Assembly: GCA_951406725.2 (NCBI GenBank)
Contig: OX597815.1
Span: 70,494,001 to 70,558,000 of the forward strand
Length of the DNA: 64,000 nucleotides
Reading direction: 5' to 3'
DNA from: Octopus vulgaris
Lineage: Eukaryota
Positions 41,500-52,251 of this stretch are shown piece after piece. Position numbers: made by a program. Position 1 is the stretch's first letter; every line of letters begins with the position of its first letter.

Positions 41500-44400
41500 G
41501 CACACATACTCATATACACACATACATACATATACATGCATGCATGCATACACACACACACACATTTATATATGTATGTGTATTTCCTGTCTGTCTCTCC
41601 CTATATGTATATGTGTGCGTGTGTGTGTCAGTGTGTGTGTGTGCGCGTGTGTGTGTGTGCGTGTGTGCATGTATATGTGTGTGTGCGTACGTGTGTTTGT
41701 GTTGTGTATGTATGTAGGTATATTAAAACGCAAATTAACCTAGAAGCACCTCCGCGTATGTTTAATTAAAGAAATTCCTCCGCAAATAAGTATTCTCAGT
41801 AATTCGTCTCGTCAAACCAGCAACGTTTAAACAGTTAAACAGTTGTTCAATGGTTCCGGGTATCCTGCTGATCCGTGTATGTATCAAGCATATGGTTGGT
41901 ATATTTTACGCGGTGTAATGTTTAGTAAACGAAAATGAAAACAAATGGATAGTTCAAAACATCACAAAACGTGTTTCACTAGCGTGGTTTATTACAAATA
42001 CGATTTTCATTGTGAAACTTAATAGTTAAAGGTTACGTAAATTTCGTATTGTTACATAACCACCCATTCCTTCAGGCGATATTCTGTCGGATATTTTCAG
42101 GTGATACCCCCAAATATGTTGGGTTTATATTAATCAATATATATATAGAGAAGGGCGACGAGCTAGCAGAATCCACAGCATGTCGGGTAGGATGCTTAGC
42201 GGCAGTTTGTCAGTTTTTACGTTCTGAATTCAAACATCGCTGACCTGTACTTTGCTTTTTATCCTTTCGGGCTCGATAGAATAAGTACCAGTTGAACACT
42301 GGGGTCGATGTAATCGATTTACCCCTTTACTTGCAGGTCTTATGCCAAAGTTTGGAATCATTAATTGATTTATCTCTCTCTATATAAACGGCAGTTTGTC
42401 TGTGCGTGTTTCTGTGTGTCTGTTTTCTCGTACCCTCACTCTGACCACGGCTTTCAACCGATTCTGATGAAACTTGACACACACATAGCCCAATGTCATA
42501 ATTCAAAACTAACGCAGCGAAAATTTTGAAAAGTTCCCCCAGTTCTGAAAAAAAATCGATAAATTCGACATGGGGTCGAGAATGAGAAACCCAAACCACA
42601 GACCGTCTAGGGGACGCAACTCCACCTGTTTTAACTCTCAAAAAAAATTTACCATCATTTTTTTCCCATTTTTTTGCTATTTTTTGGCTATAACTCTCTA
42701 AAAATGCTTTATAGTTATTTCCCTTACAAACCTGAGCAACGCCGGGCGATACTGCTATCTCTCTCTATATAAACGGCAGTTTGTCTGTGCGTGTTTCTGT
42801 GTGTCTGTTTTCTCGTACCCTCACTCTGACCACGGCTTTCAACCGATTCTGATGAAACTTGACACACACATAGCCCAATGTCATAATTCAAAACTAACGC
42901 AGCGAAAATTTTGAAAAGTTCTCCCAGTTCTGAAAAAATCGATAAATTCGACATGGGGTCGAGAATGAGAAACCCAAACCACAGACCGTCTAGGGGACGC
43001 AACTCCACCTGTTTTAACTCTCAAAAAAAATTTACCATCATTTTTTTTTCCATTTTTTTGCTATTTTTTGGCTATAACTCTCTAAAAATGCTTTATAGTT
43101 ATTTCCCTTACAAACCTGAGCAACGCCGGGCGATACTGCTAGTATACAAATAAGGCGGCTAGTTGGCAGAATCTTTAGCACGTAGGACAAAATATTTCAC
43201 AACATTTCTTAATTCAAATTACGCCAAGGTCGACTATATTTTCCATTCTTTTGGGAGTCGATAAAATAAGTACTAGCCAAGTTGACTGACCTTCTCTTGC
43301 AGAATTGTTGGCTTTGTGCCAATAATAGAAAGAATTATTTAAATAATTAATTTATATATATAATAGGGAGTGTGTATTTAAGAAACTCGCTTTGCAATCA
43401 CATAATTTCGGGTTTAGTTCCATTGCGCAGCACTTTGAGTAAGTATCTTTTATTTTTGCCCCGGTCTAACCAATGCCTAGTGAGTAAAACTGTGGAAGCA
43501 CGTCGTACATTTTATATATATGTATATTCCGGTTTCTTTTGGGTAACCTCTGGTATATATATATATATATATATTGATAAAACGGTAAGATAACAAAAGA
43601 AAGAAAGAGACCTCAATATTATGTAAATAGAGGAAATTTATCTATACAATATGTTACATTACTCGGTAGTCAAGATAAAACTCTGAGTTTCAGATGCCGA
43701 AGTGGAAATCCACAACACCATCTCTTCGGTTATCTGGCTATTTGAAAACGTTATGAAAAAATACCGTTAAAAATGAAGGGAAATTACTCTGTTATAACTC
43801 TGCTTTGCCTGCGTACTTATACATCGCTCGCATTTTTCGTCATAAAAATTATATAAAAATACATAAAAAATATATAAAAATATATAAAAATATATAAAAT
43901 CTTCTTGGGACATAACACAGAAAGCATGTTCTATCCGTTTTCTTTAGGGGACCAAAAACGTAACAGAAATTTAGTCACATGTGGGCATGATCCGAAAAGT
44001 TCTGTCCTTGTATTTAGACATGTGGTAGGGTCTAAGCTGCTTTTCCAGATAAGCCATCTCTCCATGTCGCATAAACCGCACCTTCCGCTGCCGTTAGTAT
44101 AGGGCTTACATCTGGCCAAAATCTTCCATTGTATGTTATAATCGACACCTTTATCTCTTAAAGACCAAATATGATTGGATAATTGTGTCGCTTTTCTTTT
44201 GTTCCAGTGCCTAAAGCTCAAAGTGTGGTTATTGAACCTGGTCTTGAAATTACCCTCTGTCAGGCCCACGTATTTCTTCGTCAAAACGGTGTCTTTAGTG
44301 GTTATAGAGTTTACGGTAGCCTCATATATGATGGTCTTGGACATGCAAGCTCCATTTAGCGGGCACAATTCTTTATTCCTGCATGAACAGCTGTTTTCTT

Positions 44401-47400
44401 CTTGTGTTTTTTGTATGTTATGATTGATTATGTTTTTAAAATTGGTAGTTGAACTAAAACTAATTTTTAAATTGTGTCTATTGAAGAGTTTCCTATAAGC
44501 ATGGTTAACTGGAAAATGTCTATCTATCAGTGCTAGGAAATATTTACCTATATTGAAGGCCACCTCGGGTGAGTAAGGGGGCGTAAACCAGATGACCTTC
44601 CTATTTCTATTATTCCTTTTCCTTATTGTTGGGCTGGTGATAGGTGTATATTTTATTTTTTCGCTAAAACCACTATCTTTTAAAGCTTTATTATAAACTG
44701 GGGCAACGCTATTGAAGATGTCCTCATTAGATGAGAGGCTAGAAATCCTCTTACTAATATTTTTAACTAAATTTTTGAATACTATAGGGGGATGGCATGA
44801 ACCTACATTAATATAACTTAGTCTATCATTGGGCTTCCTATAAGGCTTATAAATATTATTATTAAGATCTAAGGAAACGTCTAAGAAATTGACAACCGTC
44901 AGGTTAGTGTCTATAGTTATACTAAGTCCGAAGTGTTTCATTAACTGGATAATATCCTTCCTAAAACGATCTTGTGCTGGTCCATTTGTATTAGCTGTTA
45001 AGGCGAGGGCATCATCTTTGTAGATGGCGAAATGTACGTTAGGGAATGTCTTACTGAAGGTATCTAGGAGAAAGAGTCCAATTAGATCACAGATGCCTGC
45101 CCCATCATATGAACCCATGCTCACATCGAAAGCGCCCTCCGTGTCGGTGTTTTTTACCCACTTTGCATTCTCACTGAAAAGTAATGTCTTTCTAGCATGG
45201 AAGATTATATCCTTATCATTGGTACTAATTTCTATGAAGTCACTAGCGAAGATTAGGGCTTTATCTAGCAGTTCTTTAGAGATAGAGGCATAAAAATCAA
45301 CAATATCGAATTGTGTAAACCTCGCTTTTTTCTTATTCTTAATAGCTTTAAACCAGTCTACGACTTCTATACTATTGGACCATTGCACTAGCCTAGTATC
45401 GCTCTTAATTTTCGTATTTATTTTATCTAAAATTTCTTTGCTAATAATCCCTAGTTCTGACTTGGCTGGGTTGATAAGCCTACATTTAGGGTAAAAAGTG
45501 GGTAAAAAACACCGACACGGAGGGCGCTTTCGATGTGAGCATGGGTTCATATGATGGGGCAGGCATCTGTGATCTAATTGGACTCTTTCTCCTAGATACC
45601 TTCAGTAAGACATTCCCTAACGTACATTTCGCCATCTACAAAGATGATGCCCTCGCCTTAACAGCTAATACAAATGGACCAGCACAAGATCGTTTTAGGA
45701 AGGATATTATCCAGTTAATGAAACACTTCGGACTTAGTATAACTATAGACACTAACCTGACGGTTGTCAATTTCTTAGACGTTTCCTTAGATCTTAATAA
45801 TAATATTTATAAGCCTTATAGGAAGCCCAATGATAGACTAAGTTATATTAATGTAGGTTCATGCCATCCCCCTATAGTATTCAAAAATTTAGTTAAAAAT
45901 ATTAGTAAGAGGATTTCTAGCCTCTCATCTAATGAGGACATCTTCAATAGCGTTGCCCCAGTTTATAATAAAGCTTTAAAAGATAGTGGTTTTAGCGAAA
46001 AAATAAAATATACACCTATCACCAGCCCAACAATAAGGAAAAGGAATAATAGAAATAGGAAGGTCATCTGGTTTACGCCCCCTTACTCACCCGAGGTGGC
46101 CTTCAATATAGGTAAATATTTCCTAGCACTGATAGATAGACATTTTCCAGTTAACCATGCTTATAGGAAACTCTTCAATAGACACAATTTAAAAATTAGT
46201 TTTAGTTCAACTACCAATTTTAAAAACATAATCAATCATAACATACAAAAAACACAAGAAGAAAACAGCTGTTCATGCAGGAATAAAGAATTGTGCCCGC
46301 TAAATGGAGCTTGCATGTCCAAGACCATCATATATGAGGCTACCGTAAACTCTATAACCACTAAAGACACCGTTTTGACGAAGAAATACGTGGGCCTGAC
46401 AGAGGGTAATTTCAAGACCAGGTTCAATAACCACACTTTGAGCTTTAGGCACTGGAACAAAAGAAAAGCGACACAATTATCCAATCATATTTGGTCTTTA
46501 AGAGATAAAGGTGTCGATTATAACATACAATGGAAGATTTTGGCCAGATGTAAGCCCTATACTAACGGCAGCGGAAGGTGCGGTTTATGCGACATGGAGA
46601 GATGGCTTATCTGGAAAAGCAGCTTAGACCCTACCACATGTCTAAATACAAGGACAGAACTTTTCGGATCATGCCCACATGTGACTAAATTTCTGTTACG
46701 TTTTTGGTCCCCTAAAGAAAACGGATAGAACATGCTTTCTGTGTTATGTCCCAAGAAGATTTTATATATTTTTATATATTTTTATATATTTTTTATGTAT
46801 TTTTATATAATTTTTATGACGAAAAATGCGAGCGATGTATAAGTACGCAGGCAAAGCAGAGTTATAACAGAGTAATTTCCCTTCATTTTTAACGGTATTT
46901 TTTCATAACGTTTTCAAATAGCCAGATAACCGAAGAGATGGTGTTGTGGATTTCCACTTCGGCATCTGAAACTCAGAGTTTTATCTTGACTACCGAGTAA
47001 TGTAACATATTGTATAGATAAATTTCCTCTATTTACATAATATTGAGGTCTCTTTCTTTCTTTTGTTATCTTACCGTTTTATCAATAAATCACCTCCCGG
47101 ACGACGTTATTCTCAACTAAGAGCTAATACGACCTTTTTGGGATTATCGCCTAACATCGGTTGAGGACTCTCACAAACAAAAGAATCTAATATGGACGCA
47201 TATCACATAGATTATTCTATGAAAAATATACCGATCCCATCAAAGGATTTTTACTCTAAGAAACTTCTGCAAAAAATTACTGATGTAATTAAGCGTATGA
47301 GATGGAAGGCTTTCTTTTTTGACACAGAAGCGAACACCAAGGAAAACATTTGCTATCGGATAAAATCCAAAAAATTCCCTCCTAGGATTAAAGGCTTGGA

Positions 47401-52192: not shown

Positions 52193-52251
<59 letters not shown>

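What the first reader, a model, noticed from the sequence alone, without database searches (positions are those of the whole stretch)
43573..52197. Very young, possibly active Naiad-type Penelope-like retroelement as an inverted + tandem four-copy array
Seen: four copies that differ only at homopolymer runs as far as I can read. A (-) 43573-45490 and B (+) 45495-47086 are joined at their truncated 5' ends; C and D follow B head-to-tail with a 2588-bp period. The protein has RT (FDIVDFYASI, MGSYDG, YKDD) and a C-terminal GIY-YIG with a CxCx5CPLxGxC linker, a CxxCxxE insert and a terminal CPH. Established: tandem and inverted pseudo-LTR structures typify PLEs, and these Cys motifs resemble the Naiad clade. 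Inference: this is one recent insertion event in which each upstream 3' end serves as pLTR/promoter for the next ORF, so C and D could be transposition-competent.
Basis: partly seen in the sequence, partly recalled or inferred. Interest (0 to 1): 0.8.

Follow-up and report, generated by a model that had tools for sequence, protein, structure and literature searches.

The report
Young Hydra-clade Penelope-like retroelement array
A four-copy cluster of a small Penelope-like jumping gene of the "Hydra" type (not "Naiad") sits in a TA repeat beside an old mariner transposon, apparently freshly inserted; it is an ordinary member of a known, very widespread family, with a few instructive oddities at its ends.

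Summary
There are four copies of a 2,588-bp unit: one inverted 5'-truncated copy, one direct 5'-truncated copy, and two direct unit-length copies. They show zero substitutions and differ only at three A-runs. The last copy also lacks 68 bp at its 3' end.

It is a Penelope-like element, but not Naiad. Naiads carry the GIY-YIG nuclease at the N-terminus. This element has RT followed by a C-terminal nuclease. It also carries every protein and target feature that Craig et al. 2021 list for the Hydra clade:
- RWK and DKT motifs
- a CxCx5C linker
- no CCHH motif
- CxxC and CxH motifs
- a unit shorter than 3 kb
- insertion into (TA)n

Its ORF lines up with the published Hydra ORFs. The one mismatch is the hammerhead, which sits in the expected place but has CCGA instead of CUGA in its core.

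As assembled, no copy has the uninterrupted ORF. Copy D has one frameshift and copy C has two. Both full-length copies share a one-base offset at a C4A5 run, which could be a homopolymer assembly error.

Both outer ends are followed by (TA)n plus the same 28 bp, which is the terminal inverted repeat of the adjacent mariner-like element. This is unexplained.

Verdict: new member of a known kind; moderate interest.

The parts
43526..43553 (-). 28-bp exact copy of the left terminal inverted repeat of the mariner-like element that lies to the right of the array; follows A's 3' end after a TA tract
   Evidence: 2 exact matches in the window, 0 of 100 shuffles reach 2
43554..43574 (.). (TA)10.5 tract at the left junction; its last bases overlap A's 3' end (ATA microhomology)
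43569..45490 (-). Copy A: inverted, 5'-truncated (unit 668-2588); RT-EN frame open to the stop; carries the 68-bp 3' 'tail-like' segment (43569-43636)
45491..45494 (.). 4-bp filler (GTAA) at the head-to-head A/B junction
45495..47090 (+). Copy B: direct, 5'-truncated (unit 994-2588); acts as the upstream pseudo-LTR for C
47091..49678 (+). Copy C: full 2588-bp unit. ATG at 47192; frame offset at the C4A5 run 47701-47710; extra frameshift at the A-run at 48587; stop at 49316
49679..52198 (+). Copy D: unit 1-2520, lacking the last 68 bp
49780..50385 (+). D, N-terminal frame (RWK and DKT motifs); homology leaves this frame at the C4A5 run 50289-50298
50274..51905 (+). D, RT + CxCx5C linker + GIY-YIG-like EN frame (543 codons, open)
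43673..43735 (-). Hammerhead-like motif, copy A
46924..46986 (+). Hammerhead-like motif, copy B
49512..49574 (+). Hammerhead-like motif, copy C (unit 2422-2484): helix I AGAUAA/UUAUCU, core CCGAAGA, long imperfect helix II, GAA, helix III ACUC/GAGU with a 1-nt loop
   Evidence: compared with File S2 of Craig 2021
52101..52163 (+). Hammerhead-like motif, copy D
52196..52249 (.). (TA)27 tract at the right junction
52250..53442 (-). Degenerate mariner-like element. TIR1 52250-52277, TIR2 53415-53442 (20 of 28 identical to TIR1), broken transposase on the minus strand, TA repeats at both ends

Best explanation
This is one very recent insertion complex of a Hydra-clade Penelope-like retroelement (PLE). 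[quoted passage not shown] It landed in a TA-rich microsatellite that lies between a dispersed repeat and an old mariner-like element. Inferred mechanism, by analogy with the in vitro work on a Poseidon PLE: the element's nuclease cut the (TA)n tract. DNA 3' ends in the tract primed reverse transcription on both sides, annealing at two ATA^AAT sites in the RNA 3' region (unit ~2585 for A, unit 2520 for D). The right-hand cDNA ran through a multi-unit template (or jumped between templates) to give D, C and 5'-truncated B. The left-hand cDNA gave 5'-truncated A. The two truncated ends were then joined with a 4-bp filler. The 68 bp between the two start sites behaves like the 'tail' of PLEs: present at one outer end and at the internal junctions, absent at the other end. 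B's 3' part is the pseudo-LTR upstream of C, and C's is the one upstream of D. As assembled, no copy encodes the uninterrupted protein.
For: Shown:
- Four copies with no substitutions.
- Domain order RT then EN, and the motifs RMRWKA, SDKT, CxCx5C, CxxC..E and a terminal CxH; there is no Cys between the GIY-like and YIG-like strands.
- These match, item by item, the description of the Hydra clade (Craig 2021, section 'Hydra').
- The published Hydra ORFs seen in the supplement align by eye along the first ~400 residues shown; Hydra-1_Obim is the closest.
- There are 1187 homologues at E<=1e-5, the best at 53% identity. Of the 66 listed hits of >=690 aa, 64 have RW[KR], 62 DKT, 66 CxCx5C, 66 CxxC..E and 65 a terminal CxH. 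RT precedes the linker in 117 of 117.
- The AlphaFold model (pLDDT 79.2) matches reverse transcriptases. Retron RTs lead and telomerase RTs fill several of the top ranks, with E down to 4.5e-8.
- There are (TA)n tracts at both junctions, and every Hydra family with a stated preference in File S1 is listed as targeting (TA)n.
- A hammerhead-like motif sits on the sense strand about 105-165 nt from the unit's 3' end, where the published Hydra hammerheads mostly lie. A relaxed descriptor finds it only in the four copies, and 1 of 200 shuffles gives any hit.

From papers:
- Tandem plus inverted 5'-truncated copies and a one-sided tail are typical of PLEs.
- A PLE protein cleaves and extends both strands, starts RT internally at two sites whose interval is the tail, and multi-copy transcripts are the presumed template.
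Against: - No reads, so the copy number and the inversion rest on the assembly alone.
- The ORF is interrupted in both full-length copies.
- The hammerhead core reads CCGA, whereas 26 of 26 published Hydra hammerhead rows read CUGA. Rfam reports no hammerhead family at E<=1 over 41000-54000 or at E<=10 over 49490-49600. The motif's fold energy is unremarkable (z -1.38; 20 of 200 shuffles fold as well).
- Local Pfam does not detect RVT_1 in this protein. It gives GIY-YIG only below threshold (E 0.0094, 16.7 bits against a cut-off of 22.6), and in only 2 of 46 family members at E<=0.1.
- A profile search of PDB sequences found nothing at E<=1.
- No RT phylogeny against named reference clades could be run.
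- The simple two-sided priming model does not predict the 28-bp mariner TIR copy beyond A's TA tract.
- The tail-like segment is 65-68 bp, longer than the 30-40 bp reported for other PLEs.
Confidence: 0.72

Rival explanations
1. Naiad-type PLE: a member of the N-terminal-EN clade.
For: It has a CxC-containing Cys motif, a (TA)n target and no canonical hammerhead by Rfam. All three are also said of Naiads.
Against: EN is C-terminal. The CxC here is part of the CxCx5C EN linker downstream of RT, not between EN and RT. The motif is DKT, not DKA. There is no CCHH. The unit is 2.6 kb, not 3.4-4.4 kb. The ORF is collinear with the published Hydra ORFs.
Confidence: 0.02
2. The array, or part of it (copy number, the inverted copy A with its flank), is an assembly artefact. 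Identical repeats could have been mis-joined or over-expanded, so the real locus may hold fewer copies.
For: The copies are 100% identical apart from homopolymer lengths, which is the situation in which assemblers err. C differs from D by two compensating A-run shifts 8 bp apart, and D's version keeps a residue conserved in homologues. That looks like consensus error, so this region does contain miscalls. Craig 2021 notes that such PLE structures often cause assembly problems.
Against: It is not a simple fold-back chimera. The centre is asymmetric (A starts at unit 668, B at 994, with a 4-bp filler). A carries 68 bp that D lacks, and the TA tracts differ in length (10.5 against 27 repeats). 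The arrangement is the textbook PLE arrangement.
Confidence: 0.2
3. The tandem copies arose after insertion by DNA-level duplication, unequal exchange or gene conversion, not in one retrotransposition event.
For: Identical tandem units can be made by replication slippage or unequal crossing-over. A TA-rich microsatellite environment is unstable.
Against: The head-to-head pair of differently truncated copies and the one-sided tail are signatures of PLE integration. The B/C and C/D junctions are identical and fall at the same point as A's 3' end.
Confidence: 0.08

Closest known systems
Hydra clade of Penelope-like elements (Craig, Yushenova, Rodriguez & Arkhipova 2021, PMC8557442); by eye the closest published family is Hydra-1_Obim of Octopus bimaculoides (2507 bp)
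   Same: Short single-ORF element with RT followed by a C-terminal GIY-YIG EN. It has RWK and DKT motifs, a CxCx5C linker, no CCHH, CxxC and CxH around the conserved E and N, a (TA)n target, and a hammerhead position near the 3' end on the sense strand.
   Different: The hammerhead core is CCGA instead of CUGA and helix II is long and irregular. The ORF as assembled has a one-base frame offset. The best database relative is only 53% identical, so this is a distinct family. The metadata say no pLTR was seen for Hydra-1_Obim, whereas this locus shows a full tandem/inverted complex.
Canonical C-terminal EN+ PLEs (Penelope/Poseidon, Neptune, Nematis)
   Same: Same domain order, pseudo-LTR and inverted-copy architecture, a one-sided tail, and hammerhead motifs in the repeats.
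   Different: Those clades have the CCHH motif in EN and a CX2-5CxxC linker (Neptune, Nematis), plus the DKG and GxKF/Y motifs. This element has none of them.
Naiad/Chlamys PLEs
   Same: (TA)n targeting in Naiads, and complex tandem/inverted insertions.
   Different: Permuted order (N-terminal EN), a CxC domain between EN and RT, an IFD insertion, and larger bodies.

Membership tests
Hydra-clade PLE | C-terminal GIY-YIG EN after RT, single ORF | tested here: met
   Frame map. Alignment with 8 full-length homologues. RT precedes the linker in 117 of 117 hits. As assembled, the single ORF is broken by a 1-nt offset.
Hydra-clade PLE | Short element (<3 kb) | tested here: met
   Unit of 2588 bp. 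Published Hydra consensus sequences marked complete are 2084-2729 bp.
Hydra-clade PLE | RWK motif present; DKG modified to DKT | tested here: met
   RMRWKA and SDKT in the N-terminal frame.
Hydra-clade PLE | [quoted passage not shown] | tested here: met
   The C-terminal 152 aa printed show CSCRNKELC, no Cys between the GIY-like and YIG-like strands, CGLCDME, and LNTRTE...CPH.
Hydra-clade PLE | Insertion into (TA)n | tested here: met
   (TA)10.5 on the left and (TA)27 on the right.
Hydra-clade PLE | Canonical hammerhead ribozyme ('universally present') | tested here: not met
   A hammerhead-like motif lies at the expected place, but the core is CCGA against CUGA in 26 of 26 published rows. Rfam gives no hammerhead hit. 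This is a degenerate or variant form; its activity is untested.
Hydra-clade PLE | RT groups with Hydra in a phylogeny | not tested
   The named reference sequences exist only in a paper's supplement and were not admissible as tool input. Only a by-eye comparison was made.
EN+ Penelope-like elements in general | Reverse transcriptase of the PLE/TERT-related kind | tested here: inconclusive
   The predicted fold matches RTs; retron RTs lead and telomerase RTs fill several of the top ranks. The ranking does not separate TERT-like RTs from other RTs. Pfam RVT_1 is not detected.
EN+ Penelope-like elements in general | GIY-YIG nuclease domain | tested here: inconclusive
   Pfam GIY-YIG gives E 0.0094, below the cut-off, and hits 2 of 46 relatives. 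Related Atlas clusters carry GIY-YIG in 21-47% of members. The model has a strand-strand-helix-helix-strand-helix region at high pLDDT. The EN-only fold search could not be run.
EN+ Penelope-like elements in general | Partial tandem (pLTR) plus adjacent inverted 5'-truncated copy; optional one-sided tail | tested here: met
   The tail-like segment is 65-68 bp, against the 30-40 bp reported.
Naiad PLE | N-terminal GIY-YIG EN linked to RT by a CxC domain | tested here: not met
   EN is C-terminal. The N-terminal 173 aa have no EN motifs and align with Hydra N-termini.
Naiad PLE | DKA motif; CCHH in EN; body 3.4-4.4 kb | tested here: not met
   DKT, no CCHH, 2.6 kb.
Naiad PLE | IFD (~20-aa insertion between RT3(A) and RT4(B)) | tested here: inconclusive
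   This region aligns without an extra insertion to homologues and, by eye, to published Hydra ORFs. No Naiad sequence was aligned.

The most novel reading that the evidence does not exclude
The locus may be a fossil of a PLE integration intermediate. Read in the element's own orientation, both outer copies are followed by (TA)n and the same 28 nt of the neighbouring mariner end. The inverted copy A, together with its '28 nt + (TA)n' leader, therefore looks exactly like a cDNA primed on the same (bottom) strand of the right-hand flank as D, which was then cut loose 28 nt into the flank and flipped to the left side. The alternative is a read-through transcript that carried (TA)n + 28 nt with it. 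If this is general, the head-to-head copies of PLEs would arise from same-strand priming plus inversion, not from priming on both strands. In addition, a template with a mutated hammerhead core was mobilised in vivo, matching the in vitro finding that hammerhead catalysis is dispensable for insertion.
Probability: 0.18. Interest if true: 0.6.

Novelty: new member of a known kind. Interest (0 to 1): 0.35.

Why it matters
Hydra-clade PLEs have so far been described mainly as consensus sequences in one paper. Two full-text searches each matched four papers and listed three. Of those listed, only the 2021 paper describes the clade; one 2026 preprint reports detecting Hydra PLEs in the coral Acropora millepora. 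A zero-divergence complex with both junctions intact gives a clean view of what one integration event leaves behind:
- two alternative cDNA start points at the same ATA^AAT motif
- a one-sided 68-bp tail
- a 4-bp filler at the head-to-head junction
- an unexpected inverted copy of 28 bp of flanking host DNA

It also shows that a copy with a non-canonical hammerhead core was recently mobilised. For annotation, it corrects a likely misclassification: the Cys motifs taken for Naiad are in fact Hydra hallmarks. None of this changes the picture of PLE biology unless the flank duplication turns out to be a general by-product of integration.

Tried and rejected
- Rfam scans for hammerheads found nothing. 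A strict CUGANGA...GAAA pattern had no hit in the element. A relaxed descriptor of my own then found the variant motif.
- The thermodynamic fold of the motif is not better than shuffles, so stability is not used as evidence.
- PDB sequence searches gave nothing useful. The whole-family profile found nothing at E<=1. The EN domain alone gave one uninformative hit at E 0.66.
- Local Pfam does not contain PF26215 or PF28514, which are precomputed for many homologues. The Atlas names them HTH_animal and DUF8422.
- A programmed -1 frameshift at the C4A5 run was considered and set aside. The run is not a canonical X XXY YYZ slippery heptamer in the upstream frame (sequence), and 8 of 8 full-length homologues are continuous there.
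- An intron bridging the two frames was rejected because homologous residues are contiguous with no gap.
- I considered that the 28-bp flank repeat was a pre-existing palindrome or an independent mariner/MITE end. This is less likely: it is 28/28 identical to TIR1, while the element's own second TIR is only 20/28, and the left flank is otherwise not mariner-like. It is not excluded.
- A simple technical fold-back was rejected on asymmetry.
- The promoter scan uses bacterial consensus sequences and says nothing here.
- A structure prediction of the EN domain alone was not accepted by the tool.
- No other copy of the element lies in the window.
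Full report
**1. The observation**

The region holds four copies of one sequence.
- The repeat finder reports direct repeats spaced 2588/2589 bp and four inverted pairs with 100% complementarity.
- BLASTN of the unit against the whole 64-kb window gives exactly four hits and nothing else.
- Layout: A on the minus strand at 43569-45490 (unit positions 668-2588); a 4-bp filler at 45491-45494; B at 45495-47090 (unit 994-2588); C at 47091-49678 (a full 2588-bp unit); D at 49679-52198 (unit 1-2520).
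- A column-by-column comparison finds no substitution.
- The only internal differences are A-run lengths. C has A4...A7 where D has A5...A6 (47504-47512). C has A5 at 48587 where A, B and D have A6.
- D stops 68 bp short of the unit end.

**2. The coding capacity**

- In D, the frame starting at ATG 49780 runs to 50385. The RT-EN frame is open from 50274 to the stop at 51905.
- Aligned with eight full-length homologues of 711-752 aa, the N-terminal frame matches up to ...ETLPKK and the second frame matches from EAFITIKDHKENF. No residue is missing or extra between them, and all 8 homologues are continuous there.
- The two frames are thus offset by one nucleotide at the C4A5 run (50289-50298 in D, 47701-47710 in C).
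- C has a second frameshift at 48587. A and B are 5'-truncated but open to the stop.
- The conceptual protein would be about 173 + 535 = 708 aa, in the range of the homologues.
- An intron or a programmed frameshift is unlikely (see Tried and rejected).
- The pair of compensating A-run shifts that separates C from D looks like a consensus error. D's version keeps a serine conserved in the family. Homopolymer miscalls are therefore present in this stretch, and the shared offset could be one too. I cannot decide that without reads.

**3. Family**

- Local Pfam sees only a sub-threshold GIY-YIG match (E 0.0094, 16.7 bits against a cut-off of 22.6) and no RVT_1. The same holds across 46 relatives, where GIY-YIG appears in 2 of 46 at E<=0.1.
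- The family is nevertheless large:
  - 1187 proteins at E<=1e-5 in the 90%-clustered set, the best at 53% identity
  - 17,918 / 8,031 / 893 representatives at E<=1e-3 / 1e-10 / 1e-30 in the 50%-clustered set
- An AlphaFold model of the RT-EN frame (46-sequence alignment, pLDDT 79.2, pTM 0.57) matches reverse transcriptases in the PDB. Retron RTs lead and telomerase RTs (Candida, Tribolium, yeast, Tetrahymena, human) fill several of the top ranks, with E from 4.5e-8.
- Atlas look-alike clusters are eukaryotic. The commonest phyla listed are Porifera, Mollusca, Ctenophora, Chordata and Arthropoda. Some clusters carry RVT_1 (40-78%) and GIY-YIG (21-47%).

**4. Which PLE clade**

I read the following parts of Craig et al. 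2021 (PMC8557442): the abstract; the sections on novel N-terminal-EN PLEs, Naiad structure, Hydra, RT/EN evolution, common features, and motif identification; supplement part 2; and searched passages of the supplement.

Naiads are defined there by:
- an N-terminal GIY-YIG EN
- a CxC domain between EN and RT
- DKA
- an IFD insertion
- CCHH in EN
- 3.4-4.4-kb bodies

None of these applies to this element.

The same paper defines Hydra as:
- a short (<3 kb) single-ORF element with a C-terminal EN
- an RWK motif
- DKG changed to DKT
- no CCHH
- the linker changed to CxCx5C
- possible CxxC and CxH motifs flanking the conserved E and N
- insertion into (TA)n
- canonical hammerheads

The window's element has RMRWKA, SDKT, CSCRNKELC, no Cys between the GIY-like and YIG-like strands, CGLCDME, LNTRTE...CPH, a 2588-bp unit, and (TA)n on both sides.

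Among the 120 listed homologues, the 66 of >=690 aa carry RW[KR] in 64, DKT in 62, CxCx5C in 66, CxxC..E in 66 and a terminal CxH in 65.

The first ~400 residues of five published Hydra ORFs appear in the supplement passages. They are collinear with the window's protein by eye. Hydra-1_Obim (Octopus bimaculoides, 2507 bp) shares the most lineage-specific residues. I did not feed those sequences to any tool, so there is no computed identity and no tree.

**5. The hammerhead**

- Rfam finds no hammerhead, and the strict core pattern is absent from the element.
- By inspection there is a hammerhead-like motif at unit 2422-2484, on the sense strand, with these parts:
  - helix I AGAUAA/UUAUCU (6 bp)
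  - core CCGAAGA
  - a long imperfect helix II
  - GAA
  - helix III ACUC/GAGU with a one-base loop
  - a U at the cleavage position
- The helix III and cleavage-site arrangement, and for most families the position near the 3' end, match the published Hydra hammerheads. The first 11 nt of the core and helix II differ from Hydra-1_oBim at one base.
- That base is the second core position. All 26 published Hydra rows read CUGA; this one reads CCGA.
- A relaxed descriptor of my own finds only these four sites in the window, and 1 of 200 shuffles gives any hit. The motif is identical in all four copies.
- Its predicted stability is unremarkable (z -1.38).
- From memory, not from a call: substitutions at this core position strongly reduce cleavage in minimal hammerheads.
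- PLE hammerheads with a very short helix III are thought to act as dimers and cleave poorly in vitro (passages of PMC4209133).
- Catalytic hammerhead mutants did not affect insertion by a Poseidon PLE in vitro (PMC11167929, main text).

**6. Junctions and mechanism**

- Both outer junctions fall at the same short motif. A ends ...CAATA|(TA)n, where the tandem junction reads ...CAATAAAT|CACC. D ends ...GATA|(TA)n, where the unit reads ...GATAAATTT.
- So the cDNA starts at two ATA^AAT sites about 65-68 nt apart, each sharing ATA with the TA tract.
- The 68-bp interval is present at A's end and at the B/C and C/D junctions, and absent at D's end. This is the pattern of the PLE 'tail' (Fig. 2 legend), though the tail is reported as 30-40 bp.
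- Frangieh et al. 2024 found that a PLE protein cleaves and extends both strands and starts RT internally at two sites whose interval equals the tail. They propose multi-copy transcripts as the template.
- The structure here fits that scheme. That it arose in one event is an inference.

**7. The unexplained flank repeat**

- Beyond the TA tracts, both sides carry the same 28 bp in inverted orientation: 43526-43553 on the minus strand and 52250-52277 on the plus strand. There are no mismatches and no other match in the window, and 0 of 100 shuffles reach two matches.
- The right-hand copy is the terminal inverted repeat of a degenerate mariner-like element at 52250-53442. The evidence for that element:
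  - Transposase_1, E about 5e-7
  - a transposase broken over several frames
  - a second TIR at 53415-53442 that is only 20 of 28 identical
  - TA repeats at both ends
- The left flank is not mariner-like. It is a dispersed repeat that ends in a microsatellite, as its paralogue at 28960-29210 also does.
- The left 28-mer is therefore most simply a recent copy of the right one.
- In the element's own orientation, both A and D are followed by (TA)n plus these 28 nt.
- Possible explanations:
  - (i) read-through RNA that carried (TA)n + 28 nt (3' transduction)
  - (ii) a cDNA primed on the same strand of the right flank, cut loose 28 nt into the mariner end and flipped
  - (iii) a pre-existing solo TIR
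  - (iv) misassembly
- Capture of host DNA, template jumps and self-priming have been inferred for PLEs in a rotifer (passages of PMC3846280). I cannot choose among these with the window alone.

**8. Verdict**

- This is a Penelope-like element of the Hydra clade. It is a new family (53% identity to the nearest database protein) of a known kind, caught as a zero-divergence insertion complex.
- The Naiad label is wrong.
- 'Possibly active' is open. The sequence as given is frameshifted, but by the kind of difference that assemblies get wrong.
- The host was not determined.
- Not done: an RT phylogeny, an EN-only fold search (tool unavailable) and any read-level check.
- bioRxiv supplements and PDF supplements could not be seen. 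Supplementary figures S7-S10 of Craig 2021, which show the Hydra alignments and trees, were not available as text.

Noticed in passing
window 52250-53442: Degenerate mariner-like element (1193 bp). It has 28-bp TIRs that are 20/28 identical to each other, a transposase broken over several frames on the minus strand (Pfam Transposase_1), and TA repeats at both ends. The same TA microsatellite seems to have collected a TA-targeting DNA transposon and a (TA)n-targeting PLE.
   Followed up: partly
window 43526-43553 and 52250-52277: An exact 28-bp inverted duplicate of the mariner TIR on both sides of the PLE array. Its origin is unresolved (transduction, flipped primer fragment, solo TIR or misassembly).
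   Followed up: partly
window 42371-43141: Two tandem copies of a ~384-bp unit (92-99% identical) just left of the insertion. Parts of this flank recur elsewhere in the window (e.g. 37879-38017, 29049-29163).
   Followed up: partly
window 12692-14873 (+) and 6289-6792 (-): Fragments of other retroelements. RVT_1 (E 4.3e-13) is followed by a sub-threshold zf-RVT match in three consecutive frames at 12692-14873, and there is a weak, sub-threshold RVT_1 match at 6289-6792.
   Followed up: no
window 36831-37325 (+): A second mariner/Mos1-type remnant (HTH_48, E 8.8e-7). It has no match to the 28-bp TIR at 18 or more of 28 positions.
   Followed up: no
window 25660-27507; also 320-1436 and 58327-59392: Stretches of 1-1.8 kb that are open in several or all six reading frames, i.e. 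long simple or low-complexity repeats. The 26-28 kb block has strong GC skew (0.56).
   Followed up: no
window 40402-41142 (-): An ORF with a Cys/His-rich segment (CRLCG...H...C) fused to microsatellite-derived sequence. From memory it resembles the C-terminus of non-LTR retrotransposon proteins. Pfam gave no hit.
   Followed up: no
window 40902-41441 and 53924-54060: Dense microsatellites: (ATGT)53, (AG)n, (CAA)19 and (CAT)28. The Rfam 'miRNA' hits in this area are all on such repeats and are noise.
   Followed up: no
unit 2582-2587 (e.g. 49672-49677): An AATAAA hexamer sits at the very end of the unit, within the 68-bp tail-like segment. D lacks it, and in A it is interrupted by the TA junction.
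   Followed up: no
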